A stretch of 34,185 nt of DNA, counting the filler, from an uncultured Methanosarcinales archaeon (GTDB taxonomy: Archaea > Nanobdellota > Nanobdellia > Woesearchaeales > CALCXY01): assembly GCA_964385185.1 (NCBI GenBank). It is 17 parts of 17 records of this genome, joined end to end, with 100 filler letters (N's around TTAATTAATTAA, not from the genome) between each part and the next. Parts side by side here need not be neighbours in the genome. Positions count along the whole stretch, not along the records: positions 1 to 2,452 come from CAYLOA010000068.1; 16 more parts are not named here. One strand, given 5' to 3'. Below are positions 1 to 34,185 of this stretch, piece by piece. How positions within the stretch are numbered: position 1 is the stretch's first letter; every line of letters begins with the position of its first letter. The notes beneath the pieces were generated by a model that saw nothing but the letters and a program-made list of their open reading frames with translations, was not told where the DNA came from and searched no databases. A program made the position numbers and the translations under genes.

Positions 1-59
1 AAATAAAATTTTGAGGGATGCCTCAAAATTTCACTTCTCATAATTCTGATGTTAAGCGA
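1..59 (+). repeat. Right half of an attC-like site (hairpin plus R' core), cut by the window start
   Basis: Perfect 11-bp stem AAATTTTGAGG(6-16)/CCTCAAAATTT(21-31), then GTTAAGC at 51-57, which fits the GTTRRRY core. GTTAAGCGA is the exact reverse complement of TCGCTTAAC at 2395-2403. Confidence 0.6.
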
Positions 60-124
60 CATATTACTCAGGAGCACTTTTTGGATTTTTTAACGGGCAG
101 GAAAATTTAGATTGCTGTCGTTCT

Positions 125-574
125 TCACAATGTTACGAACTCCGTCTTCACCTGCTTAAACGACACTAAAGATTTGATTTTGACTACACCTTTTCTAGAA
201 ATAACATTCTTTACAAAATCATAATATGCATCTTGATCTTTAACTCTGACTTTCAAAACCATCTCCCAATCACCAGTACAAATATCAATACTTTCAATCT
301 GATGGTGTTTTGCCAGATCCTTACCAATTCTTTCAGGATTCCCATACTCATCTGGAGATAAACTTATCAGAACATAAGTACAGAATCCCTCATCAATTTT
401 CTTATAATCAAATACTGCTTTATAGGTTTTAATAGCTCCCTCTTTCTCTAACTTCTTAATGTTGTAGTGGATTGTGGTGGATGGCTCTTTTATCTTTTTA
501 GCTATCCTAGCTATCTGCGGGGTACAATTGCCTTCTTTAAACAATTTAACAAGTTTCTCAGTTATATTCTTCAT
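125..574 (-). CDS. Lrp/AsnC family transcriptional regulator
   Basis: N-terminal HTH (IARIAKKIKEPSTTIHYNIKKLEKEGAIKTYKAVFD) and C-terminal RAM domain with CTGDWEMVLKV; 149 aa. Confidence 0.93.
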   Translation of the reverse strand: MKNITEKLVKLFKEGNCTPQIARIAKKIKEPSTTIHYNIKKLEKEGAIKTYKAVFDYKKIDEGFCTYVLISLSPDEYGNPERIGKDLAKHHQIESIDICTGDWEMVLKVRVKDQDAYYDFVKNVISRKGVVKIKSLVSFKQVKTEFVTL

Positions 575-578
575 ATAA

Positions 579-648
579 ATTGAATAATATTCAATAATAT
601 ATAAATTTATCGCCCAATATTCGTACTTTATTCAATCAATTATATTAA
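579..648. promoter_or_regulatory. Divergent archaeal-type promoter region with palindromic operator
   Basis: Perfect palindrome ATTGAATA-A-TATTCAAT at 579-595 and a second TATTCAAT half-site at 629-636. TATA-like TTTATATA on the minus strand (598-605) and TTATATTAA on the plus strand (640-648). Confidence 0.6.
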
Positions 649-715
649 GATGGTACCACTTCTCTTATCTGAGATAAAATGAAAAATCAATCACTAGAGG
701 CTAAGGCACAAAATT

Positions 716-1573
716 GTGCTGGTCGTCGGTATCACAAGCAAAGAAGATTTAGCTAGATTTATCACTCAAGAGCCTTTAGTTGAGACTAAGCCGTCATTGG
801 CTGGAATTTCTCAAATATCAGAAGTAAATGCGCTATACTTTGGTGTTGGTCTCTGTAATGGAGTTCCTATGCTTAGTGCAGGTCTGCCCATTGATGTTCT
901 GAGCATGATTCTTAGCGGAGAACAGCTAGATGTACCAAAACATATCTTAGTTGCAGATACTCATGCGACAACTAACGGTTTTGATGCTCAATCGGTCGAT
1001 AAATTGGCTGGGCAATACCAAGAAATGTTTCAAAGAGTCGTAGAAAATCTAGGTTTTACTGGATGGCACGTTGTAAGAGCATCGGAAATAGATCAAACTC
1101 CTACTTACAGAGATCTTCTTAGCACTATAGAAGCCTCTCACGACTACATCAGAAGAGAATTGGCAGATATGCGTTGGTTCAATCACGAACATAATGTAAA
1201 TCTCAAAGTTGGCTGGGCTCTTAACGGAAGTAAGAATTCAGATGAAACATCATTTGACCAAGAATTCCAACGTCAATTTGAGGATCCTTTAGGATTTATC
1301 TACGTGATGCCCGGCAGGACTTTTGATCCCAAGAGGCTTCGCTCTGCTCCATACTTTTGCACAAATCCGGAAGAAAGAATCTTGCTCAAAGTAGATGAAA
1401 ATGTCGCGAATAAGATAGCTTCAGCTCAGGAACAATTTGGTCAACAGGCAACAAGACCATACGAGAAATTCCTTAGTCACGTAATTAGGCTATATGACAA
1501 AACTGTAGAGAGAACAGAACGAGGACCTATTGCAGGCAGATTACAACAAGTGATAGACAGGTGTACAAAATGA
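716..1573 (+). CDS. Class Ic aaRS catalytic-domain homolog (TyrRS/CDPS-like) without HIGH or KMSKS; start uncertain (GTG 716)
   Basis: Motifs in the expected order: ALYFGVGLC, HILVADTHATTN (cf. archaeal TyrRS IILLADLHAYLN), VVRASEIDQTPTYR (cf. AlbC SLSELQETPEYR), DYIRRELAD (YxxxE of CDPS, YxxxQxxD of TyrRS), NLKVGW. Reference sequences recalled from memory. Confidence 0.6.
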   Translation: MLVVGITSKEDLARFITQEPLVETKPSLAGISQISEVNALYFGVGLCNGVPMLSAGLPIDVLSMILSGEQLDVPKHILVADTHATTNGFDAQSVDKLAGQYQEMFQRVVENLGFTGWHVVRASEIDQTPTYRDLLSTIEASHDYIRRELADMRWFNHEHNVNLKVGWALNGSKNSDETSFDQEFQRQFEDPLGFIYVMPGRTFDPKRLRSAPYFCTNPEERILLKVDENVANKIASAQEQFGQQATRPYEKFLSHVIRLYDKTVERTERGPIAGRLQQVIDRCTK

Positions 1574-2271
1574 AAGAAAAAATCTTAGGAGTAATTGGAG
1601 GACTAGGACCTGAAACAGGATGTAAGTTTTGTCTAAATGTAAACCGGAAGTTCAAACCCATTACAAAAAGACAACCTCACATTTTACTAGATAATCTTCC
1701 AATCTCCCAAGAAGCAGAAGAACGCCTGATTAATGGAGGCCCATCTCAAGAACACCTGGACTTGTTGTTAGATTCAGTAAAACGCATGAATAATCTAAAT
1801 GTAGACTTAATAGTTATTGCCTGCAATACTGTTCACATCTTTATTGATGAACTTAGAGAAAAATCAACTGTTCCTATATTGAGTATCATAGAAGAAACAG
1901 CAAAAAAATGTAAAGACATGAACATTACAAAAGTTGGCATTCTTGGCTCTACCAAAACAATCAAGTCTGAGCTTCATGCCAACGAACTTCGCAAATGGAA
2001 TATTGAATCAATAACACCTGAGGATACTAGCCAACACTTTGTAAGTGAGTGTATTCTAAGAATTATCAACAACCAAGTTAAAGATAATGATAAAATACGA
2101 ATGATAAAAATAATAAAAAAACTTGAGAAAGTGGGAGCCAGGGGGATAATTTTAGGATGTACTGAATTACCCTTGTTAATTTCAGATCAAGACGCAAACA
2201 TACCAATAATCAACACTACTGAAATCTTAGAGGATTCTTCTATAAACAATTTAATTAACAAAATCAAATAA
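1570..2271 (+). CDS. Aspartate/glutamate racemase family protein (PLP-independent)
   Basis: GVIGGLGP at the N-terminus, both catalytic Cys motifs (IACNTVH, ILGCTELP) and GILGSTKT. ATG at 1570 overlaps the upstream TGA (ATGA). Confidence 0.93.
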   Translation: MKEKILGVIGGLGPETGCKFCLNVNRKFKPITKRQPHILLDNLPISQEAEERLINGGPSQEHLDLLLDSVKRMNNLNVDLIVIACNTVHIFIDELREKSTVPILSIIEETAKKCKDMNITKVGILGSTKTIKSELHANELRKWNIESITPEDTSQHFVSECILRIINNQVKDNDKIRMIKIIKKLEKVGARGIILGCTELPLLISDQDANIPIINTTEILEDSSINNLINKIK

Positions 2272-2452
2272 ATTTTCCTGCCCTAGGAAAGTAGTATCGC
2301 CATGTGGCTCAAAGAAAAGTGCTCCTTGCGTCATACGCTGCGTTCGCTTCGCTCACTTGGGGACGCTGCGCTTTCGTCGCTACGCTCCTCACCCTCGCTT
2401 AACAGCAACTATGCGGAAAGTCCCTCAGCTCGGGACATTTCCCAAATTGTTT
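2269..2452 (+). repeat. Structured non-coding element ending in the left half of an attC-like site
   Basis: Holds the reverse complements of three blocks at the contig's left end, two GNA-triloop hairpins on the bottom strand, GCTTAAC (RYYYAAC) at 2397-2403, and the hairpin GAAAGTCCC...GGGACATTTC. The contig breaks inside it. Confidence 0.6.
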
Positions 2453-9604: not shown

Positions 9605-9873
9605 ATTTTTGGTGCTTGATTTATCCATTTTGTGCACTGTGGTAGTGATCCTATGGGTTGTATATGGACAAATGCTATATCATCTATTCCACTGATTTCT
9701 CTACCAGCTCTCCAAGAATTAACAAAATCTGGTAAAATGTTACTGTAAATGAATTTGTCTAGAGCGTTGGTNNNNNNNNNNNNNNNNNNNNNNNNNNNNN
9801 NNNNNNNNNNNNNNNTTAATTAATTAANNNNNNNNNNNNNNNNNNNNNNNNNNNNNNNNNNNNNNNNNNNNGC

Positions 9874-9993
9874 TGTAAGTTCTGTCCCCATAAATGCACG
9901 TTGGCCTGGAATGCAAGCTCCCAACAGTAATCCTAAAACTATCAAGATCGTTAACTTTGGGAAATATCGGCTAATGTTGAATGTAGTTTGCAA
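9874..9993 (-). CDS. Start of a lipoprotein, probably SCO/SenC family (3'-partial)
   Basis: TTG start 5 nt after the ctaAB stop; lipobox LLGA|C followed by FMGTELT. The family call is from context. Confidence 0.5.
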
Positions 9994-9998
9994 ATTGA

Positions 9999-11807
9999 TT
10001 AAAAAGTAACTGTTGCGTCAACCATCATAGATGTGAACAGTAAAGCTAGATAGAGCAGTGAATAAAGGTATAATCGGCGCGCACTTTGTCTCGTTGTTGC
10101 CCTAAATACTTGTATTGCGTAAAAGAGAAAGATCGCCCCGAGCATGACAGCACTAGCGGCGTAAATCACGCCTATTACGCTTGTCGTTGCAAATAATATT
10201 GTTAATGTAACCAGGATTATGGAATGGCCCAATATTCCTTTAGCTGTTGCTTCTTCCCCGTATTCAACTGGGAGCATAGGAATCCCAGCTTTAGCATAGT
10301 CGTCCTTGATAAGTAGAGATAATGCCCAAAAATGTGGCGGTGTCCAAAAAAATACTATTCCGAATAGATAGAGGGATGGAAGTTCCAGTCCACCTGTTAT
10401 GGCAGCCCATCCGACCATAGGAGGCACAGCCCCGGCGGCGCCGCCTATCACTATGTTGTGTATGGAAGTTCTCTTTAACCAGGCTGTGTAAACGAGGACG
10501 TAAAAGATAGTTGCTCCGGCAACCAATGCGGCGCTTACAGGATTAACCCAGTAGAAAAGTACAATGAACGCAATTACATTTAGCGTTATGCCGAAATAGA
10601 GGGCATGATTTGGGGCAATGCGATTGCCAGGCAGAGGCCTATGACTGGTTCGGCTCATCTTGTCATCTATATCACGATCCAAATAGTGATTTATCGCGTT
10701 AGCGCCTCCGGCTCCAAGTGAGCCACCGATTATTACAAGCAAGGTTGTTAGAAGCGGTGGCACTCCGTTGGAGGCTAAAAACAATCCGCCTAGGGCAGTA
10801 ATGAGCAAAAGGACAATAATCATCGGTTTGGTTAGTGCTAAGTAATCCATTGCCGCTGCTTTGAAATTCATGTTGAACGAATTGGGTTTCACCAATGTTG
10901 CCAATATCACAAGATTGCCCCATTGAGCTGTCGCCAATGTCAAATGTGAAATACGCGACAAGGAAGAGAATCCGGTTAGAGGATTGGCGGCTCCAACTAT
11001 GACTTGGGATAATGAAATGGCGACCAAAAATGCCCCTGCGAGTCCAGTAAGCATCGACCGGCTCCGTTGTGACCAGGCAATGAGCCCTACTCCTATTCCT
11101 ACCAAAGTCGAAATCCCGGCAAGCATTCTATGGGACAAATGTAGCCATTCAAGGGAGATATCTGGCACTAGTGAGTTATTACATAGAGGCCAACTTGGGC
11201 ATATGGTGCCTGCTCCTTGGCCTACAGTGATAGACCCTGAAATTATCACTATTATCGTGATCACTGCACCCAATGTAGCCAAAAAGAAGATTCTGGGAAC
11301 GGGCTGCTTCGAGTTTGTGGAATCATGGTAAGTCCAAATTATGCCCACGATAAGTAGGGCAAAAATGATTTGCGCTGTTGTAAGGTGCAGAGTTCGAAAA
11401 TGAGGGTTGAGTTCGGTGAATACAGTCGCGCCTCCTAAGCCACCTGCCACTATTATTAAAAGCACAGTTGCCCAAAGTATGTTTTTTATTGGCCTGACCG
11501 AAGGCCGTATGAATGTTGCGAACAGTGCCGTTCCAATTACGAAAATACCCGTTAGGGTTGCAAGTAGTCTGTGGAAGTACTCAACCAAGCTGTGAAAGTC
11601 GAGAGGCGGTACTATTTTCCCATAACATAACGGCCAGTCAGGGCATCCCAACCCGGATCCGGTAACTCGTACGAGTGCTCCCACGGCAATTAGGAAAAAA
11701 ACGGTGGTTGCACAAACGGTGATGAGAATCAGCAATGGCGTACCGTGAAGATTGCTGTGCAACCCTTTTGCAGGGCCAGTGATATTCTTGTTGGCCATAA
11801 CCTTCAA
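9999..11807 (-). CDS. ctaB: Heme A synthase (CtaA/COX15) fused to protoheme IX farnesyltransferase (CtaB/CyoE)
   Basis: N-half: GSGLGCPDWPLC, EYFHRL, CPSWPLC, HLSHR. C-half: LTKP, NHYLDRDIDDKMSRTSHRPLP, YTAWLKR, FFWTPPHFWAL, DDYAKAGIPMLP. The start may be ATG 11798. Confidence 0.95.
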   Translation of the reverse strand: MKVMANKNITGPAKGLHSNLHGTPLLILITVCATTVFFLIAVGALVRVTGSGLGCPDWPLCYGKIVPPLDFHSLVEYFHRLLATLTGIFVIGTALFATFIRPSVRPIKNILWATVLLIIVAGGLGGATVFTELNPHFRTLHLTTAQIIFALLIVGIIWTYHDSTNSKQPVPRIFFLATLGAVITIIVIISGSITVGQGAGTICPSWPLCNNSLVPDISLEWLHLSHRMLAGISTLVGIGVGLIAWSQRSRSMLTGLAGAFLVAISLSQVIVGAANPLTGFSSLSRISHLTLATAQWGNLVILATLVKPNSFNMNFKAAAMDYLALTKPMIIVLLLITALGGLFLASNGVPPLLTTLLVIIGGSLGAGGANAINHYLDRDIDDKMSRTSHRPLPGNRIAPNHALYFGITLNVIAFIVLFYWVNPVSAALVAGATIFYVLVYTAWLKRTSIHNIVIGGAAGAVPPMVGWAAITGGLELPSLYLFGIVFFWTPPHFWALSLLIKDDYAKAGIPMLPVEYGEEATAKGILGHSIILVTLTILFATTSVIGVIYAASAVMLGAIFLFYAIQVFRATTRQSARRLYLYSLLYLALLFTSMMVDATVTF

Positions 11808-11921
11808 TATACGTTACTCAGGGGCAGATCTAGAAGGAATCTTACCTATGTTACTGGAATCTGGCAACAATATGGTATTCGGAGAGGTTACATTCTCAAC
11901 TGGCGTTTTGCCAAAATATTG

Positions 11922-11950
11922 TTGACTCTGGTTTGCTAAATTGGTATTCT
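11922..11950 (+). promoter_or_regulatory. Bacterial sigma70-type promoter for a divergent gene starting near 12014
   Basis: TTGACT-N17-TATTCT with TG just upstream of the -10 box. Confidence 0.55.
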
Positions 11951-12155
11951 TGCACCAGTTTGTGAGTTGCGGCATTTTTCACAAAAGGCGCCTCGGGAGC
12001 TTAAAAGAGAAAAATGGGAATCAATAAATCTATACTCCATAACTTGGCCAAACTNNNNNNNNNNNNNNNNNNNNNNNNNNNNNNNNNNNNNNNNNNNNTT
12101 AATTAATTAANNNNNNNNNNNNNNNNNNNNNNNNNNNNNNNNNNNNNNNNNNNNG

Positions 12156-12341
12156 AAAGTTTTCGGAGCTATTGCATCTGGAAAGGGTAAAAAACTTGCT
12201 AAATCACTTGATTTTGATCCTGTATTACAAGGTCATATTAAACGGGCAAATGATGCAGCAGTAGATGTGAGAAAACACGTTAATATAAATCGTAAAAAAG
12301 ATCCAGACTTAGATGATTATCTAAAAAAACGGGGTCTTTAA
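12156..12341 (+). CDS. Small phage protein upstream of the tape-measure gene (5'-partial), not in the ORF track
   Basis: KVFGAIASGKGKKLAKSLDFDPVLQGHIKRANDAAVDVRKHV aligns by eye with the 66-aa ORFs at 32281 and 33905. Confidence 0.65.
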   Translation, partial: KVFGAIASGKGKKLAKSLDFDPVLQGHIKRANDAAVDVRKHVNINRKKDPDLDDYLKKRGL

Positions 12342-12371
12342 TCTTAAATAAAACAAACTAAGGTATATTAC

Positions 12372-14282
12372 ATGGCCTTAACAAATGCACAATTAAAAGA
12401 AAGAAAAAGTCTTTTAGAAGATATTGAAAAAAGTGAGCTAAAAATTGCTGGTCATACGGCAGTAATCGAAAAGGGTACAGGTTTAACTAATGATCAATTA
12501 AGGAAGATAGCAACGAACCGAGAAAAAGCTACCCAAGAATTAAAGAGGCAGAGAAAAGAATTATCAGACATTCAAAAAGAAGAAGATAAAATTAATGCTA
12601 AATTGGAAAGACGAAAGCAGATTACTAAAGAGTATGGTGGAATAGAACAAGATATAATGGATTCAATAAAATCTCAACCCAAATTTTTACAAAAAATAGA
12701 TATCGCCCGAGAAGGTATTCTTGAAAATCTTCAAAAAGCTGAAAAATTAGAAGCTAAAGGTTCAGCAAACATGACTCGCCGTGAGAAAAAAGAATTATCA
12801 ATGAGGAATTCCATCTCTGATTCAATTCAAGGTATTTTAGATAATTCTGCAAATATAGCTTCAGAAGAATTTACATCATATAATTTACAGAAACAAATTA
12901 ATTGGGCAAGAGCGAATGAACAGAAGGGTCTTGTAGCACAATTAGAGAATATGCAAGAAATGCAAGAATCCCAAAAACATATGAATGATATTGCAATGGA
13001 AGGTGCTAATCTTATGAGGGCCCCGATAGATAAGTTAAGAGAAGTTATAGAAAGTGCACCTGGTGGAAAATTTTTGAGTAAATTATTGGGATTGGAAACT
13101 TTAGGAGATAAAATTTCAGCATCTTTTTTGACTGGGTTTAGAAAAATGATAGGATTAGAAGATAAGTTACCAGGAGCAGAAGAAGCACCAGAAAAAGTAA
13201 TGGGTTCTAAAGGTAGAATGGTTACGGAAGGTGGAAAGGCACATAAAAGAGATGTAAAAAACAAATGGTTTGACTCAAAAGAATACAAAGAAATGGAAGA
13301 ATCACAAGAAGATGCTGCCGAATCTGCAGAAGATCAGGCAGAAGCCGCAGAGGATACTAAAGATGCAACTGAAGGAGCAGGAAAGGCAATGATAAACGTA
13401 ACCACATCGGCTATTGCAATATTAGCAGCAATAATTGCTTGGACAGTTGAAACTGTGAGATTTTCTATGCAATTAGGAGTTGCACGTGGAGAACTAAGTG
13501 CAATAGCAGTATTATTTAAGGAACAAACTAAAGCAGCACTTACAGAATTTGGTAGTATGCGAGGGGTAAGTGATTCATTATTGGCCAATATGTGGCTGAT
13601 GGAAAAGACACTTGGTGCTCAAGCAGCAGATATAGCAAAAATCTTGGTTTTACAGACATCTATTACAGATCAAACAAGAGATATGGCATTAAAAGAACAG
13701 TATAAATGGATAGAAAGTATTCAAAATGAAGGACTTTCTGTAAAAGATGTTTTCGCAGATATGGCACAAAACGCCGATTTTGTGGCAATTCATATGAAAC
13801 ACGGTGTTAAAAATATGGTAGATGCCACAAGAGCAGCACATCAGATGGGATTGAGTTTAAGTGAAACAGCGTCAATTGCAAATAAATTACTTGATTGGGA
13901 AACTTCTATAAAAGATGAAATGGAATTGTCATTACTATTAAATCGAGATATAAATTTTGATAAAGCAAGAGGTCTTGTATTGGCTGGAAAAACCACTGAA
14001 GCGGCAGCGGAAGTTAAAAGACAGATGGGTGGTGAAGCAGCATTTACAGCAGCGGGAATAATTGCAAGACAAAAGATGGGAGAAGCGATAGGACTTCAAG
14101 GTAAGGCCTTAGCAGAATTTATGCAGACAGACCAACAAAGAGTCGAAGCCCAGAAACAGGCAACAGAAGACCAAGCAAAAGCAGATGAAGCAGCGGCCGC
14201 AGAAAAGGCAAAAATGTGGGGTTTGATTGGAATGGCAGCAGGAGCCGTAGTTGTAGCGATAGGTGCTGGATTAGCAGCCGCA
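12372..14282 (+). CDS. Phage tail tape-measure-like protein (3'-partial)
   Basis: Long Ala/Glu/Lys/Met-rich helical protein with hydrophobic Gly/Ala stretches. LLDWETSIKDEMELSLLLNRDINFDKAR resembles motifs I recall from large-phage tape measures. Confidence 0.7.
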
Positions 14283-14382: not shown

Positions 14383-14811
14383 GCAAAGAAAGTTGATCCA
14401 GTTTTAGCAGGGAAATGGATTAGAAGAGAACTCAACAGAGTCTTAAACTATAACCAGAAATCATTAAAAGAAATTTCTCTAGATGAGCCAAACTTCATAA
14501 AACTCCTAACATTAATAGAAAAGAAAACCATAACAGAATCAACAGCTCAAAAACTTCTAGAAACATTCATAACTTCTCCATTCGACCCAGAAGTCTACGT
14601 AAAAGAACAAGGTTTAGAAGCTGTCTCAGATTCATCTCAAATTGAAGAATTCGCAGAAGAAGCAGTAAAAGAAAACCCTGAAGCGGTAGCAGACTACAAA
14701 TCAGGAAATGAAAAAGCCATACACTTCATTGTGGGCCAAGTAATGAGAAAATCCAAAGGCCAAGCCACACCAGCTGAAGTGAATGATATTCTGAAGAAAT
14801 TGCTAACCTAA
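14383..14811 (+). CDS. gatB: Asp/Glu-tRNA amidotransferase subunit B, C-terminal YqeY-like domain (5'-partial), not in the ORF track
   Basis: KWIRRELNRVLNY...GLEAVSD...ENPEAVADYKSGNEKAIHFIVGQVMRKSKGQATP. Confidence 0.9.
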   Translation, partial: AKKVDPVLAGKWIRRELNRVLNYNQKSLKEISLDEPNFIKLLTLIEKKTITESTAQKLLETFITSPFDPEVYVKEQGLEAVSDSSQIEEFAEEAVKENPEAVADYKSGNEKAIHFIVGQVMRKSKGQATPAEVNDILKKLLT

Positions 14812-15279
14812 ATCTGCAATCAGCCTTTCTGCCTCAGCATAAATTTCAGTTGAAAGATACATACCTTTCCTGAGGAGCTCCTGCAATAGTTCAATGCCTT
14901 CTTTACCTGTGCACTTTTTCTTTTCTACATTCTGTAAGATGATCCCTACTGTTCCTTTTACAGGGATATCTTCAATTTCTGCTATAGTTCTTGCCTGTTC
15001 ATCATCTGTCAAGAGCATACCTTTCATTTCTTTTGCAAGAGAAATAGCATGCTGTTCACCTGTATCTAGAGGGAATGGAATAACCTTTTTCACTTCTTTT
15101 ACTTTGATAAATCGGTCAAGGAACTTCTTTATGTATATCTGTTCAGGACAATTCTTGAATAATAATTCTCTTTCCACCTCGGCAGGAATAAGGATCTCAG
15201 AGTAAAGATTCTCCAGGAGATCATATCTGAATATTTTTCCCAGGAGAATAAGGACAGTGGTATTGCTGATTATCTTCAT
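14803..15279 (-). CDS. PIN-domain toxin, DUF3368/COG2405 type
   Basis: IISNTTVLI, IPAEVERE, LDTGEQHAISLA, LLTDDEQAR, VKGTVGII. Confidence 0.85.
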   Translation of the reverse strand: MKIISNTTVLILLGKIFRYDLLENLYSEILIPAEVERELLFKNCPEQIYIKKFLDRFIKVKEVKKVIPFPLDTGEQHAISLAKEMKGMLLTDDEQARTIAEIEDIPVKGTVGIILQNVEKKKCTGKEGIELLQELLRKGMYLSTEIYAEAERLIADLG

Positions 15280-15572
15280 AGTGACTCAAAATCCTTTTTC
15301 AGCGATTCAAGGCTATAATTCAGAGGAACTTTCTTATCCTTCAACAACTGAGGTAATTCCCAGACAGAAATCTCTGCAAACTTTGAAGCCTGTCCAAAAG
15401 AAAACTTTCCTTGCCTATATTGCTCTACAGCATAGTTTTTTTTCCATTCTATCAAAGCAGTAGCTAATAATTTCCTTATTGCACCAGATTGATCCAAGTC
15501 TTCCTTGTCAGCAACAGTTTTCACACCAGCAATATACTTGTCTGGAAGTCTTGTGGTTATTATTTTTGTCAT
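15276..15572 (-). CDS. UPF0175/COG2886 antitoxin with RHH-like N-terminus
   Basis: IITTRL...DQSGAIRKLL and YRQGKFSFGQASKFAEIS; ATGA overlap with the PIN gene. Confidence 0.85.
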   Translation of the reverse strand: MTKIITTRLPDKYIAGVKTVADKEDLDQSGAIRKLLATALIEWKKNYAVEQYRQGKFSFGQASKFAEISVWELPQLLKDKKVPLNYSLESLKKDFESL

Positions 15573-15580
15573 AGAATACG

Positions 15581-15605
15581 TTGTAATACATTGTAATATA
15601 TAAGC
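15581..15605 (-). promoter_or_regulatory. TA promoter with tandem operator repeats
   Basis: TTGTAATA at 15581-15588 and 15591-15598 (10-bp period), next to TATA-like CTTATATA on the minus strand. Confidence 0.55.
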
Positions 15606-15613
15606 TTATCGGA

Positions 15614-16363
15614 TTAACCCCTAGCATACTCCCACATTTTATAAAAAAACTTTCTATAACTATCACTAATTGCAGAGCTATGAATCACAACAGCAACAGG
15701 CTCCTCCTCAAAACCAACCTGCAATACAAAGTCTCCAAATATAATTACACCCTGTGGAGCTATCCCTGGAACAAACCTATACATTGGCGTCCCAAACTTT
15801 CTATAATAACCATATTCTTCAACCTGTTTTCTAGCATCCTCATTAGCAATCAACTTCACCTTATACTTCATCTTAATCCGTTTCTTATGAAACTCTCGAA
15901 AAAATCTTCTAGCCTCCTTGCCAAATTGTTCCTCAAACCCTGCAGCAAAGCCAATATACTCAGATCCAACAGGAAGAGTTGTCAAAATAAAATTAAAAGC
16001 ATTATAGAGACCTTTCCAACCTGTAAAAACCTGAGCTTCCTGCCTGTCCTGCACCAATGTTTGCTTCGCAATCAACTGTGGAACAACCTTCTCCAACTTC
16101 TGTCGTTTATCGTCAACATAATCTAACAAATTCTGGGGATTGTGAGCACTAAACAACTTCCGTTTACCCTTCAACACATACCCAACCAACCCCTTTTCCA
16201 TGAGTTGATTCAAAGCATTATACACTACCGAGTTCTGCAACCCTGATTTACGAATTACCGGCCCAGAAGTAGTCTCTCCCAACTCCAACAAAGCCACATA
16301 GACCTTAATCTGACCCTTACTTAACCCAATATCCTCAAGAACACCCATCTCTACCATACACAT
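15614..16363 (-). CDS. TrmB family transcriptional regulator
   Basis: LEDIGLSKGQIKVYVALLELGETTSGPVIRKSGL...L.EKGLV wHTH plus C-terminal PLD-like effector domain. The start may be a few codons later. Confidence 0.88.
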   Translation of the reverse strand: MCMVEMGVLEDIGLSKGQIKVYVALLELGETTSGPVIRKSGLQNSVVYNALNQLMEKGLVGYVLKGKRKLFSAHNPQNLLDYVDDKRQKLEKVVPQLIAKQTLVQDRQEAQVFTGWKGLYNAFNFILTTLPVGSEYIGFAAGFEEQFGKEARRFFREFHKKRIKMKYKVKLIANEDARKQVEEYGYYRKFGTPMYRFVPGIAPQGVIIFGDFVLQVGFEEEPVAVVIHSSAISDSYRKFFYKMWEYARG

Positions 16364-16389
16364 TCAATCCCTTCAGAATATTTAAATCT

Positions 16390-16407
16390 TTCTCCTAAAA
16401 AGGAGAA
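16390..16407. promoter_or_regulatory. Palindromic candidate TrmB operator
   Basis: TTCTCCT-AAAA-AGGAGAA perfect inverted repeat abutting the BRE/TATA (GAAAGATTTAAATA, minus strand) of the trmB gene. Confidence 0.5.
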
Positions 16408-16808
16408 TAAAACAATAAATACTCTTCCTGATACTACTATACAATAACAAAGTCGTACTCGGACATGAAACGAGTGGTGGTGAAACAAATGAATNNNNNN
16501 NNNNNNNNNNNNNNNNNNNNNNNNNNNNNNNNNNNNNNTTAATTAATTAANNNNNNNNNNNNNNNNNNNNNNNNNNNNNNNNNNNNNNNNNNNNCGCAGA
16601 GTATTTTAATCACCGTAAATCGCATTGACACCGTAGTTTTCGCTAACATTAGTAGTATTAATTTTCTGCAAAGCAGACTATAGTTTAGGGGGAGTTCTTG
16701 AGCCGAAGGCTCTTTTAGTTTAGTACATTAAGGGGAGTTCCGTTTTATCTTTTGAGCGTAGCGTTACTTTGAAAACAAGAAGAAAGGGGCAATTTCTATT
16801 TCATTATT

Positions 16809-17561
16809 TTACAGGGTCGCTTGTTTCCACAATATTTCAAAATATTTCCTATATGAATCAGCTGATTCTTTGTTTTTTATCAGAAAACAAACAGGAGTTC
16901 CATGAACATTAATTGTTACTACATAATCTTTGAAAATATCAATCCATGCCGGTGTTTCCAAATTTTGATTCATGTATTTGACTTTGGTAAGTTTCATTAT
17001 CTTTCTTTTCTTTCCAAAGTCCCTACAATCATGATTATAGAGGATTCTCATTTTAATGCCGAGTTTGATTCTTTTCTTATTCCATTCCATCAAGTATGCT
17101 TGGAATTTTTCATTGGCCTCTCTAGGTACACCCAAAATATCTATGGTGTCTCCTCTTTTCAATTCTTTTAATATCCATTCATAAAAAGTTTTAAATCCCT
17201 TAACTCCCTCATAAACTTCTGCCATTGGTTTATACTTCTGTTCTTCATATTGTGCTCTGAGTTGAGGGATTACTTGTTTTAATTGAAGCTCTTTTTTCTT
17301 TAGATCATCCTCTTTCTCTTTTAGATAATCTAATAATCTCTCTGGATCTTTAGCATGATAATACTTTGTCCCTGCTTTAACTGAATATGTTACTAGTCCC
17401 TTGAGGACTAATTTATCTAAAATTAAGTAAGCTTTTCCAGAAGCTATTCCTGCTTTTTTGATTATTGGACCAGTTGTTGATGAACCAATTTCTAACAAAG
17501 CAAAGTATACTGCTATCTCTGATTTAGTTAAACCAATCTCTGTCAATAATTCTTCGTACAT
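16809..17561 (-). CDS. TrmB family transcriptional regulator
   Basis: LTEIGLTKSEIAVYFALLEIGSSTTGPIIKKAGI...LDKLVLKGLV; AEVYEGVKG; SYRKYFEILWKQA. Confidence 0.9.
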   Translation of the reverse strand: MYEELLTEIGLTKSEIAVYFALLEIGSSTTGPIIKKAGIASGKAYLILDKLVLKGLVTYSVKAGTKYYHAKDPERLLDYLKEKEDDLKKKELQLKQVIPQLRAQYEEQKYKPMAEVYEGVKGFKTFYEWILKELKRGDTIDILGVPREANEKFQAYLMEWNKKRIKLGIKMRILYNHDCRDFGKKRKIMKLTKVKYMNQNLETPAWIDIFKDYVVTINVHGTPVCFLIKNKESADSYRKYFEILWKQATL

Positions 17562-17656
17562 ATTACTAAAAATGGGCTATTTCTATTTAAATCTTTCCAT
17601 TAGTGCCCACTCGGAGGGAGGCAGCCTTTATATCTTAATTTAGTTACTACTATTGC

Positions 17657-18532
17657 ATGGTGGATAAAAAGAAAATTATTTTGGTAGATGCATGTTCAAC
17701 ATGGCTTAAGAAGAATGAAGGCCAAACTGATCAAGTAGTTCTACCTCTGGGTCTCATGTATTTAAGTTCTCACCTAAAACAACAATTTGGAGATTCAGTA
17801 GACACTAGTATTTTACATTCAGTTGTAGATATTAAATCTGATGAACAATTAAGGGAAATAATTGAGAGGGAAAAGCCAGACATTGTTGGAATAAGAACTC
17901 AAACAGTATATCGTGATGAATTCCATAATGTTGCAAAAACTGTAAAAGAAACTTCTGATGCCCTTGTTATAGCTGGCGGGCCACATGTTTCTTCTGATTT
18001 AGATGATGTATTAAATGCAGGGGTTGATATCGCAGTTATAGGTGAGGGAGAACATAGTCTTGCTGAAATTGTTGCAGGAAAAAAAAAAGAAGAAATTATA
18101 GGAATTGCTTACAGGGAGGATGGAAGAACAGTTAGAACTATACCCAGAGTTGGAATAGATAACTTAGATGTTCTACCATTTCCGGATTATGATAACATTG
18201 ATATGGACAAATATGAATCAAATTTGAGCTATGGTTTTAATTTTAGAAAACAAGGCGTTGTGACAACCTCCAGAGGCTGCCAATTTACTTGCGACTTTTG
18301 TCATACAACATTAGGCAAAAAAAGTAGGCTACGTTCAGCAGAAAATGTTCTTGATGAAATTCAAGAATTGTCCGATAGGGGAATTAAAGACATTTACTTT
18401 GTTGATGATATATTTAATATCAACAGAAAGCGAGCACTTGAAATTTTTAGAGGAATATCTGAGCGAGATTTGGGTCTTCGTTTATATTTTGTAAACAAAC
18501 AAAGTCTTATCTCTATATTCAAGATTGTATAG
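17657..18532 (+). CDS. B12-binding-domain radical SAM protein (incomplete at the contig end)
   Basis: PLGLMYLSS, KPDIVGI, IAGGPHVS, GEGE, LPFPDY, TSRGCQFTCDFC (CxxxCxxC), YFVDDIFN. Confidence 0.9.
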   Translation: MVDKKKIILVDACSTWLKKNEGQTDQVVLPLGLMYLSSHLKQQFGDSVDTSILHSVVDIKSDEQLREIIEREKPDIVGIRTQTVYRDEFHNVAKTVKETSDALVIAGGPHVSSDLDDVLNAGVDIAVIGEGEHSLAEIVAGKKKEEIIGIAYREDGRTVRTIPRVGIDNLDVLPFPDYDNIDMDKYESNLSYGFNFRKQGVVTTSRGCQFTCDFCHTTLGKKSRLRSAENVLDEIQELSDRGIKDIYFVDDIFNINRKRALEIFRGISERDLGLRLYFVNKQSLISIFKIV

Positions 18533-18645
18533 ATGCTATGTTTANNNNNNNNNNNNNNNNNNNNNNNNNNNNNNNNNNNNNNNNNNNNTTAATTAATTAA
18601 NNNNNNNNNNNNNNNNNNNNNNNNNNNNNNNNNNNNNNNNNNNNT

Positions 18646-27668: not shown

Positions 27669-27911
27669 NNNNNNNNNNNNNNNNNNNNNNNNNNNNNNNN
27701 NNNNNNNNNNNNTTAATTAATTAANNNNNNNNNNNNNNNNNNNNNNNNNNNNNNNNNNNNNNNNNNNNGACATAATATCGTCGTAGATTTCTCGTACCTG
27801 TTTATTAGCTTCTGAATACTCAATAAGTCTTGTTGTAGGCAATTTAAACTCCAATCTACTTTAATGAATTTAATTGTTAGTCTTGGTTGGATATGATACA
27901 ACTCTTGGGAC

Positions 27912-29150
27912 TTGAAATACTTGATTGATGTTAAAACTATATTTGGCAATTGGTGGTCAGACGGACCATTACAGTATAGTGACTTACGAGTATTTGGATT
28001 CGCGTCGATACTGAGTTCTGTTGGGTTAACTGCTGAGCAGGTTGTAGTTGGTTGGTACGTACTTGAATTGACTGATTCTGCTTTCATGGTTGGGCTGGTG
28101 CTCGGAGTCAGAATGTTGTCTAACACCATTTTCGGGATTCCTTCAGGTATTGTGGCAGATATGGTAAACAGGCCTAAATTCATCAGATCTTTAAGAGTAG
28201 CCACCGCAGCACCAATTTTGTTATTAGGGATACTTATAGTTACAGGAAGTGCTGGGGTATGGCATGTATTGGTTTTGACGGTAATTGCAGGAGTATTCCA
28301 AGTTTTCGAGAGTACTGCTTCTAGCAGTTTTGTTTATGATGTGGTGGGCTCGGAAGGAGCGATTCAAGGACTAGCCCTGTTGTCAATGATTGGAAGAATA
28401 GGGAGAGTTATTGGATCAATAAGTGTGGGATTTGTTATTGGCTATCTCGGATCAGGTTACGCATTAGTAGGAACTTCCGCTGTGTTTTTTATCGCATCTC
28501 TGGCAATGATGAATATCCGTTCACGTGGCCAAGCGGCCCCTTCATCAAAAGATTCTCTTAGGGAAACCGTAAACCAGTTTTTTAAAGAATTGGTGACAAA
28601 TCGGACTTTGATAATAATGTTTTCTGCTACCGCGTTGGTTGAGATTCTGGGGTTCTCACATAAAGTTCTTTTGCCAAGCTTGGCAAGGGATGTATTGGAT
28701 GTCGGAGCTGAAGGCTTAGGGATTATGAACGGGGTAGGATCACTGGGAGGAATTATAGGCATCCTTTTGCTTACAATTGGGAGGCGCCATGATAAAGGTA
28801 AAGGCATATCTTATTTAATAACTATATTAATTTTCGGTTGTTCGCTGATGGTACTTTCTTTGGCAAGCAACTTTATCTTTGTGTTGGTTGTACTTGCTGT
28901 AATAAATGCGGTGATGGCACTATCGGACTTGTTGTCTCAGGGGATTATGCAACTTGTAGTACCCAACAAGTTTAGAGGTAGAGCTATGGGTTCGTGGATG
29001 TTAGCACTGGGAGCTGGTCCAATAGGTACCTTACAAATAGGTGCTATAGCTTCATTATCAGGGGTTTCTGTTGCTTTGGCCATCAATGGTTTTGGATTAG
29101 TGATATTAGCCTCTTTGTTTATATTGTTACCAATGATTAGGAGGATATAA
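27912..29150 (+). CDS. MFS transporter (bacterial-type)
   Basis: About 12 TM segments; GIVADMVNR, LLPSLARDVLDVGAEGLG, QLVVPNKFRGRAMG. Confidence 0.9.
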   Translation: MKYLIDVKTIFGNWWSDGPLQYSDLRVFGFASILSSVGLTAEQVVVGWYVLELTDSAFMVGLVLGVRMLSNTIFGIPSGIVADMVNRPKFIRSLRVATAAPILLLGILIVTGSAGVWHVLVLTVIAGVFQVFESTASSSFVYDVVGSEGAIQGLALLSMIGRIGRVIGSISVGFVIGYLGSGYALVGTSAVFFIASLAMMNIRSRGQAAPSSKDSLRETVNQFFKELVTNRTLIIMFSATALVEILGFSHKVLLPSLARDVLDVGAEGLGIMNGVGSLGGIIGILLLTIGRRHDKGKGISYLITILIFGCSLMVLSLASNFIFVLVVLAVINAVMALSDLLSQGIMQLVVPNKFRGRAMGSWMLALGAGPIGTLQIGAIASLSGVSVALAINGFGLVILASLFILLPMIRRI

Positions 29151-29426
29151 ACCGACTAAAATTTCAAAAGTCTAAGTTATTTCATAAGAACTAATTATTA
29201 GCTAGGATGCCTAATTTAGGCTCAGGGATGTGAGAGTGTTGTGAGTTTGAGATTTGCATTTGATTCTGTTCAGTCAGGGGGCGGAACCTTTCAGCTGCGT
29301 CAAGTATTTTACTGAACAATGAATNNNNNNNNNNNNNNNNNNNNNNNNNNNNNNNNNNNNNNNNNNNNTTAATTAATTAANNNNNNNNNNNNNNNNNNNN
29401 NNNNNNNNNNNNNNNNNNNNNNNNAT

Positions 29427-30932: not shown

Positions 30933-31051
30933 CCAAGGTTGAATCAGTTTTNNNNNNNNNNNNNNNNNNNNNNNNNNNNNNNNNNNNNNNNNNNNTTAAT
31001 TAATTAANNNNNNNNNNNNNNNNNNNNNNNNNNNNNNNNNNNNNNNNNNNN

Positions 31052-32257
31052 TTTTAATCCACCCACCAAAGTTTTAATCATTGTTTGAGCTGAACCCACA
31101 ACAGATTTAAGTGCCTCGTCTTGAGTCATAGTACCTGCCTGTACTTGTTTAAATGCGCCTTTTGCACTATCTTTAAAAGTACTCATTACTCCATCGAGAT
31201 CAATAGTACTACTTATAAGATTACCAAATGGTAATGCTTCCATTGCCGACTTCATTTTATCAAAAGGTGCAGAAACAGCATCTACTGCGGCCGCAATTTG
31301 TTGATGTTGAAGTTTTTGTTCTTTTGCTAATTTGACATTTGCTTTTGCATTGTCTACTGCAAGCCTGGCGGCGGTATCACCTTTATCTATCTGATCCTGT
31401 GCTTCTTTTCTCTTTTTATTTAACTCTTTAACTAAATTTAGTTCTGCTTCGGTCAGATTTCCTTTAGCCATCATCAACCCAATCTGCCCCTCTAATATAG
31501 CTACTTCGGATTCCATTCCTGTTTTTCTCTCTTCCCACAATCCCAGATTTCTTTCAGCTATTTTTTCTTGTTTTTCCATCTCTCCAACCATATCCATAAA
31601 ACTACTCTCTCCAATCTCATCAAAATTTATAAGTAATTTGTTTGAAGATTCTATTGTGTCGCCGAGTCCTTCAATCATCGTTGTTACTGTTTGTCCAACC
31701 ATTGCATGTAAGCTACGCCACGATTCCATAGCATTTTTTGTTGCCTGACCTTCCTGAGTTCTAAGATCTACCATTGTGCCTGATACATCACCTGCTTTAC
31801 GCAGAGTCGCATACAATTCATCTGCTGCGTCAGTCCCTTCTTTCATAAACTCTGAAAGACTTTCTGCACCAGTAGCAAATTCGTGCATCAGATTTGGTAA
31901 GTTTTCAAGCACCCTCTTAACGGAGTCTGTGTCATTCTTAATTCCTATTGTTGCTAATCCAGTTTGATGTGCGGCATTAGACCAGTCAATTGTCCTTTTA
32001 TCAATTCCTTCAATAGATTTACCAACATCTTTTTGTAACGACTCTACCCGTGACATAAGGGTATAAACTTTCTGTTCACCTTCTTCTCGGACTTTATTAA
32101 TAGCCGCCTGTTCTTTTTTTATATTTTTAAGTCGTTTTTCTTTGGCCTGTAAGGATTGTATTTCCTTATCATCCAATGCGCCGGACTTTTTCTTGAGCTC
32201 ATTGATTTGGCCCGTGAGTAAAATTTCTTCTTTTCTTCTACTGATAGAAGTTGCCAT
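31052..32257 (-). CDS. Phage tape-measure-like protein, allele A (3'-partial)
   Basis: Helical and heptad-rich. APFDKMKSAMEALPFGNLISS aligns with APIDKLREVIESAPGGKFLS of 12372-14282, and the same small gene lies upstream. Confidence 0.65.
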
Positions 32258-32280
32258 TATATATTATTCCTAATTTAGAT

Positions 32281-32481
32281 TTAATACCCAGCGTTCTTTA
32301 ATCTTTTTTCTAAATTATCTAATGCATCGCTGGTTTCTTTTGCGGCCGCTTTTAGGCCTGGATTATCTTTCAATATTTTTAAAACATTTTTAGTTCGGCC
32401 CTTGAGAATACCTTGTAATATCTTCTCAAAAACACCTTCTCTAAGTTGTTCTTCTGTTAACTTATTTTTGGACGAAGCCAT
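32281..32481 (-). CDS. Small phage protein upstream of the tape-measure gene, allele A
   Basis: 66 aa with AGGAG at 32489-32493 (minus strand); homolog at 33905-34105. Confidence 0.75.
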   Translation of the reverse strand: MASSKNKLTEEQLREGVFEKILQGILKGRTKNVLKILKDNPGLKAAAKETSDALDNLEKRLKNAGY

Positions 32482-32675
32482 TTTTATTCTCCTACATATG
32501 ATTTTATTTTATGATTTCCTTTGGTTAAACAGGATAGTATAACTCACTAATAAATATCATATATAGGAAAAAATGNNNNNNNNNNNNNNNNNNNNNNNNN
32601 NNNNNNNNNNNNNNNNNNNTTAATTAATTAANNNNNNNNNNNNNNNNNNNNNNNNNNNNNNNNNNNNNNNNNNNN

Positions 32676-33881: not shown

Positions 33882-33904
33882 TATATGTTATTCCTAATTT
33901 AGAT

Positions 33905-34105
33905 TTAATACCCAGCGTTCTTTAATGATTTTTCTAAATCATCTAATGCTTCACTGGTCTCTTTTGCAGCTTGTTGTAGAGCAGGATTATCTTTCAATAT
34001 TTTTAAAACATTTTTAGTTCGGCCCTTGAGAATACCTTTTAGTATCTTCTCAAAAACACCTTCTCTAAGTTGTTCTTCTGTTAATTTATTTTTGGACGAA
34101 GCCAT
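33905..34105 (-). CDS. Small phage protein upstream of the tape-measure gene, allele B
   Basis: 59 of 66 residues identical to 32281-32481 by hand count; AGGAG upstream. Confidence 0.75.
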   Translation of the reverse strand: MASSKNKLTEEQLREGVFEKILKGILKGRTKNVLKILKDNPALQQAAKETSEALDDLEKSLKNAGY

Positions 34106-34185
34106 TTTTCTTCTCCTACATATGATTTTATTTTAAGATTTTCTGTGGTTAAACAGGATAGTATAACTCACTAATAAATATCATA

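What the first reader, a model, noticed from the sequence alone, without database searches (positions are those of the whole stretch)
51..2452. Contig 1 looks like a single integron-type gene cassette
Seen: GTTAAGCGA (51-59) preceded by a hairpin, and TCGCTTAAC (2395-2403) followed by a second hairpin, with the contig ending inside that site. Established: a cassette starts with TTRRRY from R' and ends with RYYYAAC (R''), and the two are complementary within one cassette; repeated attC sites often break assemblies; integrons have been reported in archaea. Inference: a cassette of about 2.4 kb carrying its own regulator and promoters, unlike the usual promoterless single-ORF cassette. No IntI is visible in this window.
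Basis: partly seen in the sequence, partly recalled or inferred. Interest (0 to 1): 0.75.

Follow-up and report, generated by a model that had tools for sequence, protein, structure and literature searches.

The report
Mobile three-gene cassette, archaeal integron-like system
This small contig is one mobile gene cassette of a tiny marine archaeon, found next to different neighbours in different genomes, and it belongs to an integron-like gene-shuffling system that seems to use a plain Xer-type recombinase and whose cassettes have ends that pair with each other.

Summary
Confirmed and extended. Window 1-2452 is a whole contig holding one cassette of about 2,441 bp: Lrp regulator (-), then TyrRS-fold protein and Asp/Glu racemase (+). 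All six other copies that reach the left end have different upstream DNA and join exactly at position 51/52. One 99.9% identical copy has another neighbour and completes the right site. Public runs show the site halves at raised depth (right half about 10-20-fold), joined to other cassettes.

The sites are not canonical attC. They have a paired 6/8-nt spacer with a 2-nt bulge and no unpaired central spacer. No IntI was found in the genome. A XerA-type recombinase without the IntI insertion lies beside an attI-like site, as do 26 of its 30 closest homologues.

Cassette heads and tails carry private complementary blocks (40 of 50 cassettes; 0.7% of cross-pairs). Here the racemase's last codons mirror Lrp codons in 5 of 5 cassette copies and 0 of 5 non-cassette relatives.

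This scan noted the system and the end-pairing before on other DNA; my paper searches found neither. Recombinase activity is inferred, not shown.

The parts
1..51 (+). 3' half of the upstream neighbour's recombination site: loop hairpin 6-31, inner arm 33-43, 8-nt spacer 44-51; crossover after G51
   Evidence: Family 3'-half profile score 23.4, one of 4 hits in the genome against 0-2 in shuffles; replaced by other DNA in six other copies
51..57 (+). Core site GTTAAGC (R'); the cassette starts at T52
   Evidence: homology to six other copies begins at 51/52
52..124 (+). Non-coding cassette head; blocks 52-59, 70-81 and 95-109 are complementary to the tail
   Evidence: positions 52-81 invariant in 6 of 6 copies while the stretch between blocks varies
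125..574 (-). Lrp/AsnC-family transcription regulator, 149 aa; codons at 172-182 are complementary to 2259-2269
   Evidence: PF01037 E 1.4e-11
575..715 (.). Divergent intergenic region with a conserved AT-rich palindrome (581-593) and a TATA-like stretch (about 597-608); candidate promoters and Lrp operator (inferred)
   Evidence: Conserved in cassette and non-cassette relatives; no expression data
716..1573 (+). 285-aa protein with a class Ic aminoacyl-tRNA-synthetase (TyrRS/TrpRS) fold, without HIGH or KMSKS motifs
   Evidence: Model pLDDT 93; Z 19.8, rmsd 3.4 over 249 residues to A. pernix TyrRS; weak PF00579 in 10 of 41 family members
1570..2271 (+). Asp/Glu-family amino-acid racemase, 233 aa; its last codons mirror Lrp codons
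   Evidence: PF01177 E 3.9e-38, TIGR00035 above cut-off
2259..2396 (+). Cassette tail: blocks 2259-2269, 2269-2283 and 2315-2326 pair with the head; G+C-rich family segment at about 2335-2396
   Evidence: DNA match of 2265-2410 in 32 of 401 genomes of the order, own genome included
2397..2452 (+). 5' half of the cassette's own site: inverse core GCTTAAC 2397-2403, 6-nt spacer 2403-2408, inner arm 2409-2419, loop hairpin about 2415-2441; cut by the contig end
   Evidence: 5'-half profile score 20.5; completed in L032; depth 58-112 against 5-7 in the body

Best explanation
Positions 52-2452 (plus 40 unassembled nt) are one mobile gene cassette of an integron-like system of DPANN archaea. The host is probably Woesearchaeota, inferred from the names of homologues.

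SHOWN by comparison: the unit moves as a block with a fixed left junction G|TT. Its site family is repeated, covarying and widespread. The same genome holds a XerA-type tyrosine recombinase, lacking the IntI insertion, that lies divergent from an attI-like site.

INFERRED mechanism: the bottom strand of the site folds into a hairpin that mimics a Xer-type double-stranded site (arm, 6-nt spacer on one side and 8-nt on the other, arm). The recombinase cuts at AA|C and exchanges one strand with the double-stranded attI-like site or with another site, and replication resolves the product. Head and tail of one cassette pair in single-stranded or circular form. This extends the fold to about 370 nt and favours recombination between a cassette's own ends.

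INFERRED origin: a pre-existing divergent Lrp / TyrRS-fold / racemase module was captured as DNA together with its promoters.

Cargo, least certain (about 0.4): an Lrp-controlled amino-acid-modifying unit. The TyrRS-fold protein would use an already activated aminoacyl donor, as cyclodipeptide synthases do, and the racemase would supply a D-residue.
For: Seven different left neighbours with one junction. L032 is 99.9% identical over 2,411 nt but has a different upstream half-site. In four public runs contigs break at 55 and 2399, and other heads and tails join the same half-sites. In 44 distinct arm pairs chosen without a pairing filter, 9.7 of 11 positions pair with the own partner against 7.2 permuted (maximum 7.75 in 1000 permutations), with several pair types per column. 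Strict 3'-half pattern in 60 of 301 genomes, reversed control 0. attI-like motif within about 200 nt upstream of 26 of 30 closest recombinase homologues, own included; background 2.6%. Complete sites within 1.5 kb upstream of 6 of those 30 and none downstream. An array lies beside the 64-66% identical homologue in G097. Own head-tail block of 12 nt or more in 40 of 50 cassettes against 0.7% of cross-pairs, confined to the first 120 nt. Modelled cognate junction -75.7 against -52.5 kcal/mol with foreign heads.
Against: No physical link between C68 and the recombinase contig C16; both end at assembly breaks. No circular joint was listed in the four runs, though contigs drop rare forms. The attI motif was defined after seeing the sequences, and the genomes are kin, so the counts are not independent. 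10 of 50 cassettes lack a 12-nt private block. The second XerA-like gene (C34) could not be examined upstream. The tree neither shows nor rejects a single origin of the cassette form (support 27/37). Other small contigs in this window look foreign to the bin, so the assignment of C68 to this genome rests on homology. No activity assay exists.
Confidence: 0.78

Rival explanations
1. The 'attI' is the host's dif-like site and the recombinase is the housekeeping XerA. Cassettes are passengers that exploit chromosome-dimer resolution through a folded single strand, as phage CTXphi does with XerCD, rather than parts of a dedicated integron-like platform.
For: The attI-like motif reads arm, 6 nt, arm. 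The recombinases score near or above the archaeal XerA model (209 and 224.6 bits, cut-off 220) and align without a gap to an archaeal XerA structure. XerA-like matches occur in 116 of 151 genomes. In single-contig genome G128 the only match lies beside a cluster of small genes that carries the family's tail segment. PMC4792948 notes that the CTXphi site mimics double-stranded DNA without extrahelical bases.
Against: Many genomes, including this one, hold two or more XerA-like genes, and one single-contig genome (G026) has no match with this query. Cassettes carry no replication or transfer genes in the arrays read. This rival shares the chemistry of the best explanation and differs only in the enzyme's day job.
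Confidence: 0.12
2. A canonical integron cassette in a CALIN, moved by an IntI that is unassembled, lost or supplied in trans.
For: Cores fit RYYYAAC / GTTRRRY, the crossover is G|TT and the site is 102 nt, within the 57-141 bp range. Ghaly et al. list attC clusters in 16 Nanoarchaeota genomes in the rows shown.
Against: No match over the cut-off for TIGR02249 or NF011946 in a genome rated 100% complete; the insertion region is unmatched. 74 of 87 complete sites pair all six spacer positions around a 2-nt bulge (these sites were selected for stem pairing, which includes four of the six positions). All 16 of those Nanoarchaeota genomes have 0 IntI. Genes point either way in the arrays: 18 single '+' against 16 single '-' of 50.
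Confidence: 0.07
3. The ends are a non-autonomous transposon or palindromic repeat family (MITE/REP-like) that happens to flank the genes, or the junctions are assembly chimeras.
For: The sites are multicopy and hairpin-rich, the unit has interrupted terminal inverted repeats, and the contigs are metagenomic.
Against: The junction is the same base in seven contexts. Upstream DNA differs within 10 nt of it, so no k-mer-length repeat can swap neighbours. The window's junction is spanned by contigs in three runs, two of which look like one data set. Sites are asymmetric, co-oriented in tandem arrays and tied to a tyrosine recombinase with an attI-like site. Target-site duplications were not searched for systematically.
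Confidence: 0.03

Closest known systems
Integrons and gene cassettes (IntI, attI, attC), including archaeal integrons and CALINs of Ghaly et al. 2022 (PMC9668308 / bioRxiv 10.1101/2022.02.06.479319)
   Same: Recombinase divergent from an attachment site followed by tandem cassettes; RYYYAAC...GTTRRRY cores; G|TT crossover; head core complementary to the cassette's own inverse core; variable internal loop; sites break assemblies.
   Different: Recombinase about 45 residues shorter than VchIntIA across the insertion region. Paired 6/8-nt spacer with a 2-nt bulge instead of an unpaired central spacer and two single extrahelical bases. Strong primary-sequence conservation of the arms. Genes in both orientations and multi-gene units with their own promoters. 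Cassette-private head-tail pairing over about 120 nt.
Xer recombination and integrative mobile elements exploiting Xer (CTXphi), as discussed in PMC4792948
   Same: Xer-type enzyme without the I2 domain; a folded single strand that mimics a double-stranded site; arm-6 nt-arm architecture.
   Different: Tandem arrays of unrelated cargo without replication genes; the 2-nt bulge; one recombinase beside the site. Whether the site is dif was not tested.
Class Ic aaRS fold: TyrRS/TrpRS and cyclodipeptide synthases (PMC3105412), for the cargo protein
   Same: Rossmann-fold catalytic domain. ADxHA and a Y-x3-E/Q-x2-D motif sit in the register of the host TyrRS pocket (the second by eye). HIGH and KMSKS are absent, as in CDPSs.
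   Different: Keeps a C-terminal helical domain, which CDPSs lack. Fold is closer to TyrRS (Z 19.8) than to CDPS (Z 11.8 or less). No activity known.

Membership tests
Integron gene cassette (IntI/attC) | Inverse core RYYYAAC and core GTTRRRY, complementary within one cassette | tested here: met
   GTTAAGC 51-57 and GCTTAAC 2397-2403
Integron gene cassette (IntI/attC) | Unit moves with a crossover at G|TT | tested here: met
   6 of 7 left junctions read G|TTAAGC, one reads A|TTAAGC; all have different upstream DNA
Integron gene cassette (IntI/attC) | Imperfect palindrome of 57-141 bp that folds as a single strand | tested here: met
   102 nt in L032, z -7.8; family range 80-203, median 111; covariation
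Integron gene cassette (IntI/attC) | Unpaired central spacer between the R and L boxes (PMC5371416) | tested here: not met
   The spacer pairs fully around a 2-nt bulge in the window's site and in 74 of 87 sites
Integron gene cassette (IntI/attC) | Two single extrahelical bases about six nucleotides apart (PMC3053210) | tested here: not met
   Fold shows a 2-nt bulge and then an unbroken 11-bp stem; perfect stem of 11-12 bp in 58 of 87 sites
Integron gene cassette (IntI/attC) | Hit to the IntegronFinder / HattCI attC model | not testable with these tools
   Model not held; Rfam gave only three chance matches, E 1.5-4.3
Integron (platform) | IntI integrase with the additional I2 domain | tested here: not met
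   TIGR02249 matched in two pieces without positions about 180-237, best 207 bits against cut-off 265; 24 residues where VchIntIA has 69. The assembly is in 85 contigs, so an unassembled IntI cannot be fully excluded.
Integron (platform) | attI-type site adjacent to the recombinase gene, followed by a cassette head | tested here: met
   26 of 30 homologues including C16; background 2.6%; motif defined after inspection
Integron (platform) | Tandem array of sites | tested here: met
   Seven co-oriented 5' halves in G097; in the own genome C25 carries two consecutive sites; C68 is not physically linked to the others
Integron (platform) | Bottom-strand-specific recombination with replicative resolution | not testable with these tools
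   Needs a recombination assay
XerA/dif or IMEX | Recombinase of the XerA family with intact catalytic residues | tested here: met
   NF040815 scores 209 (C16, under cut-off 220) and 224.6 (C34, over); R-K-H-R-H-Y aligned to 4A8E
XerA/dif or IMEX | Target is the chromosome-dimer resolution site at the terminus | not tested
   No whole-chromosome analysis was run
Tyrosyl-tRNA synthetase (cargo) | HIGH and KMSKS ATP-binding motifs | tested here: not met
   Absent from the 41-sequence alignment; the genome has separate TyrRS and TrpRS genes
Cyclodipeptide synthase (cargo) | Class Ic catalytic domain alone, no C-terminal domain, catalytic serine acceptor | tested here: inconclusive
   PF16715 in 2 of 41 members at E 0.065; Z up to 11.8; the C-terminal domain is present; no invariant serine (S123 is 90% or more conserved, its role untested)

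The most novel reading that the evidence does not exclude
A second kind of integron, widespread in DPANN archaea, works without the I2 domain, and its cassettes are made at the DNA level. A chromosomal stretch, here a divergent three-gene module, acquires ends by short templated copying between its two termini. This cassette preserves such a step: the racemase's last codons are an inverted copy of conserved Lrp codons, and the match begins at a shared AATT. The system would be a living counterpart of the Xer-to-integron intermediate and a tractable model for cassette genesis.
Probability: 0.35. Interest if true: 0.88.

Novelty: new variant of a known kind. Interest (0 to 1): 0.72.

Why it matters
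PMC4792948 calls the joint origin of the I2 domain and attC sites a chicken-and-egg paradox and says no reliable model of cassette genesis exists. A cassette system with a plain Xer-type enzyme and bulged, dif-like hairpins would make the first question testable. This cassette bears on the second, because the same module exists with and without cassette ends and cannot derive from one mRNA, having divergent genes and an intact promoter region. It may also explain why all 16 Nanoarchaeota genomes with attC clusters in the rows I saw of Ghaly's Data S1 have no IntI; whether their sites are of this family was not checked. One strict half-site pattern alone is present in 60 of 301 genomes of the order, so the system may be a major route of gene gain in these small genomes.

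Tried and rejected
1. First generic hairpin scans were uninformative: 1 hit against 0 in shuffles and 6 against 3-9. The fixed-offset scan of the own genome at 9 of 11 gave 3 against 4-7 in shuffles. Only the half-site profiles separated signal from noise, and the 5'-half profile alone did not (8 hits against 4-12 in shuffles).
2. Rfam: chance matches only.
3. An 'empty first cassette' upstream of the C16 recombinase was dropped: what follows the head does not match the family 5' half.
4. Empty target sites for the L012 and L013 insertions were not found. The best relatives were only 66-72% identical, so L013 as a secondary-site insertion rests on its lying directly behind an ordinary gene.
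5. No circular joint was listed in four runs, all contigs; no RNA holder was listed. Neither is evidence.
6. Trees: cassette copies needed 2 changes on the single-protein tree and 1 with support 27/37 on the three-protein tree. Single origin is neither shown nor rejected, and L037 may be a loss.
7. In G128 no complete family site was recovered beside the recombinase, only a head motif, tail matches and one 5' half.
8. The sigma-70 promoter scan does not apply to archaea.
9. Pfam, NCBIfam, PDB sequence search and the Atlas left the 285-aa protein unnamed.
10. Paper searches listed no description of this recombinase-site pairing, of the private end-pairing or of the cargo family. The library lacks most subscription papers. 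Two short site motifs were not found in the Ghaly supplements, and I saw no attC sequences in the rows returned.
Full report
OBSERVATION. Window 1-2452 is the whole of contig C68 of a 1.30-Mb, 85-contig genome. GTTAAGCGA lies at 51-59 and its reverse complement at 2395-2403. Both hairpins fold better than shuffles. Between the cores lie an Lrp/AsnC regulator (125-574, minus), a 285-aa protein without family (716-1573) and an Asp/Glu racemase (1570-2271). Homologues that carry a name are from Woesearchaeota; I infer the host group from that. Of 85 contigs, 8 share any 9-nt end-to-end inverted word and 2 share one with a GTTRRRY core, C68 and C25.

THE UNIT MOVES. Searches with the middle protein gave 2 genome loci and 29 metagenome loci. 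Six of these 31 are close (84-100% DNA identity) and reach the left end. All six lose similarity at window 51/52 and all have different upstream DNA. With the window that makes seven contexts. Three are family 3' half-sites (window, L032, and L033 as a variant judged by eye). Two are collapsed sites with only 5 nt between the cores (L012, L044). One is a join behind the 6-nt spacer of another site (L035). One directly follows the stop codon of an ordinary gene (L013). L032 is 99.9% identical over 2,411 nt, has a different upstream half-site, and supplies the 40 nt that complete the right site. The cassette is therefore about 2,441 bp and the site 102 nt (fold -26.4 kcal/mol, z -7.8). Upstream sequences differ within 10 nt of the junction, so an assembler cannot swap neighbours through a shared repeat. 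Twenty public runs from 17 studies, nearly all marine, hold the stretch. In the four laid, the body has depth of about 5-7, contigs on 2399-2452 reach 58-112 and contigs on 1-55 reach 10-36. Other cassette heads and tails join the same half-sites. X1 and X2 look like one data set, and one run may be the window's own source. No circular joint was listed.

THE SITE FAMILY. From 24 distinct complete sites the layout is: outer arm ending TAA, 6-nt spacer, inner arm, variable loop, inner arm, 8-nt spacer ending in G, then TTA and the next head. The 3' offset is 3 nt in 22 sites against 6 or fewer for any other offset. In 87 sites from the larger set, all six spacer positions pair around a 2-nt bulge in 74; these were selected for stem pairing. 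Without a pairing filter, 44 distinct arm pairs pair 9.7 of 11 positions with their own partner against 7.2 when permuted, with compensating pair types. A strict 3'-half pattern occurs in 60 of 301 genomes of the order and its reversed control in none (one matching genome, G275, is unpublished). The window's own variant does not fit that strict pattern. Profiles trained on other genomes find four 3' halves in the own genome (C25 twice, C30, C68:32) against 0-2 in shuffles. Canonical attC sites have an unpaired central spacer and extrahelical bases (PMC5371416, passages), typically two single bases six apart (PMC3053210, passages). Neither is present here.

THE RECOMBINASE. The genome has five PF00589 matches and none over the cut-off of two integron-integrase models. 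Two full-length XerA-like genes start near contig ends (C16, C34). C16 aligns in one piece to an archaeal XerA structure and in two pieces to VchIntIA, with 24 residues where IntI has 69. XerA-like matches occur in 116 of 151 genomes (two matching genomes, G143 and G163, are unpublished). Among C16 and the 29 closest homologues for which loci were returned, 26 of 30 have, read away from the gene, an arm ending TAA, a 6-nt spacer ending G and a family head; background is 2.6%. The motif was defined after inspection. Of the four misses, one has no upstream DNA, one has 93 nt, one is a broken gene and one has unrelated upstream DNA. Six of the 30 have a complete site within 1.5 kb upstream and none downstream. 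In G097 an array with seven 5' halves runs away from a homologue of 64-66% identity. In G177 the first head after this site starts with the same 11 nt as window 52-62. The IntI-specific domain is treated as defining by Ghaly et al. (first quarter of the preprint, passages of both versions and rows of Data S1 read) and as essential for single-strand recombination by PMC4792948 (passages). PMC8138268 says the insertion is not fully conserved in its integron-like subgroup but essential for integron function (passages). PMC9024848 describes the standard detection method (passages). In Data S1 all 16 Nanoarchaeota genomes shown have attC clusters and 0 IntI.

PAIRED ENDS. Beyond the core, the window's ends carry collinear inverted blocks: 70-81 with 2315-2326, 95-109 with 2269-2283, and 172-182 with 2259-2269. 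This is general. Of 50 cassettes defined by half-site profiles, 40 have a block of 12 nt or more between their own head and tail, against 0.7% of cross-pairs; the chained score is 27.5 against 8. The signal is confined to the first 120 nt, and 14 of 99 blocks are coding on both sides. The 50 are not corrected for kinship and a few may be merged cassettes. A modelled junction of tail, site and head folds as one rod of about 370 nt at -75.7 kcal/mol against -52.5 with foreign heads; 47 of 50 cassettes favour their own head. This follows from the complementarity and is not independent evidence. Head positions 52-81 are invariant in 6 of 6 copies while the stretch between blocks varies, which points to selection.

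WITH AND WITHOUT ENDS. The three genes also occur together at 79% identity or less, among ordinary genes and without family sites (L037, L038, L039, L045, L054). In 5 of 5 cassette copies with both ends, the racemase ends LINKI[K/E] and shares an exact 11-14-nt inverted block with Lrp codons. In 0 of 5 non-cassette loci is there a block of 11 nt or more. The Lrp motif is conserved in all ten loci and the racemase tail is not, so the racemase end is the side that changed. In L037 the Lrp stretch is identical to the cassette form, and the racemase stops where the block would begin, at a shared AATT. The five copies descend from one event, and the trees do not fix whether L037 precedes capture or lost its ends. 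Templated copying and gradual selection for pairing both remain possible. A divergent layout with an intact promoter region excludes origin from a single mRNA.

CARGO. The 285-aa protein has 57 homologues and a confident model. It matches class Ic synthetases over its whole length (Z 19.8 to TyrRS, 17.2 to TrpRS, 11.8 or less to cyclodipeptide synthases). HIGH and KMSKS are missing, as in cyclodipeptide synthases (PMC3105412, passages), but the C-terminal domain is kept. Three distant members lie beside a TyrRS-family gene, two of them also beside DAHP synthase, an enolase-superfamily enzyme and a glutamine amidotransferase. I read this as an aminoacyl-transferring enzyme coupled to a racemase under Lrp control, at about 0.4.

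MECHANISM AND VERDICT. Shown: a mobile unit, a fixed junction, a repeated covarying site family, a neighbouring attI-like site for an I2-less recombinase, and conserved private end-pairing. Inferred: single-strand folding, the identity of the enzyme, replicative resolution, the role and origin of the pairing. It works like an integron cassette but fails three defining tests for IntI/attC membership, so I class it as a new variant. The scan noted the recombinase-array pairing and the paired ends before on other DNA, and a sister cassette in this genome. Those notes are not independent evidence. What this locus adds is a near-identical cassette in two contexts and a comparison with non-cassette orthologues. 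Ten paper searches listed no description; subscription literature is largely missing from the library. Interest 0.72.

Noticed in passing
G000:C25:52-3624: A second complete cassette (3,475 nt, three genes, mixed orientation) between two family sites, with its own head-tail blocks of 14, 10 and 12 nt.
   Followed up: partly
G000:C30:10485-10798: A complete 155-nt family site near the contig end, followed directly by the start of another Asp/Glu racemase-like gene.
   Followed up: no
L025:823-2020 (G000:C4, about 62.0-63.2 kb): A paralogous divergent Lrp plus racemase pair without the TyrRS-fold gene and without family sites; similar pairs in L015 and L016.
   Followed up: partly
window 9872-12054 and 27769-29324: Contigs with raised G+C (about 46% and 43%) encoding a heme-A-synthase / heme-O-synthase-like fusion and an MFS-like transporter (judged from sequence, not searched). 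They look foreign to this archaeal bin.
   Followed up: no
window 14383-18544: Two small contigs with TrmB-like regulators, a PIN-like protein and a radical-SAM-like gene (judged by eye). TrmB-like genes are also cargo in L033 and the G097 array, but no family site scored here.
   Followed up: partly
window 12155-14282, 30996-32575, 32676-34185: Long coiled-coil ORFs resembling phage tape-measure proteins; the last two resemble each other.
   Followed up: no
L012:5318-5343 and L044:1120-1146: Collapsed sites in which the inverse core and core are only 3 nt apart, leaving the previous cassette fused to this one.
   Followed up: partly
L035:150-171: The cassette head is joined behind the 6-nt spacer of another site, which suggests recombination at the inner box.
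   Followed up: partly
L049, L052, L055: Distant members of the TyrRS-fold family sit next to a TyrRS-family gene; in L049 and L052 also DAHP synthase, an enolase-superfamily enzyme and a glutamine amidotransferase. Possibly an undescribed biosynthetic cluster.
   Followed up: partly
window 679-759: An upstream ATG opens a 26-codon frame overlapping the start of the 285-aa gene; in L037 this ATG is in frame with the gene. Possible leader peptide or alternative start.
   Followed up: no
L012:1730-2070: A palindromic element of about 340 nt with an internal hairpin, resembling an IS200/IS605-type end (recalled, not tested).
   Followed up: no
G000:C11:12177-12365 and C6:15681-15758: Two nearly identical C-terminal fragments of a tyrosine recombinase, each followed by a related convergent gene.
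   Followed up: no
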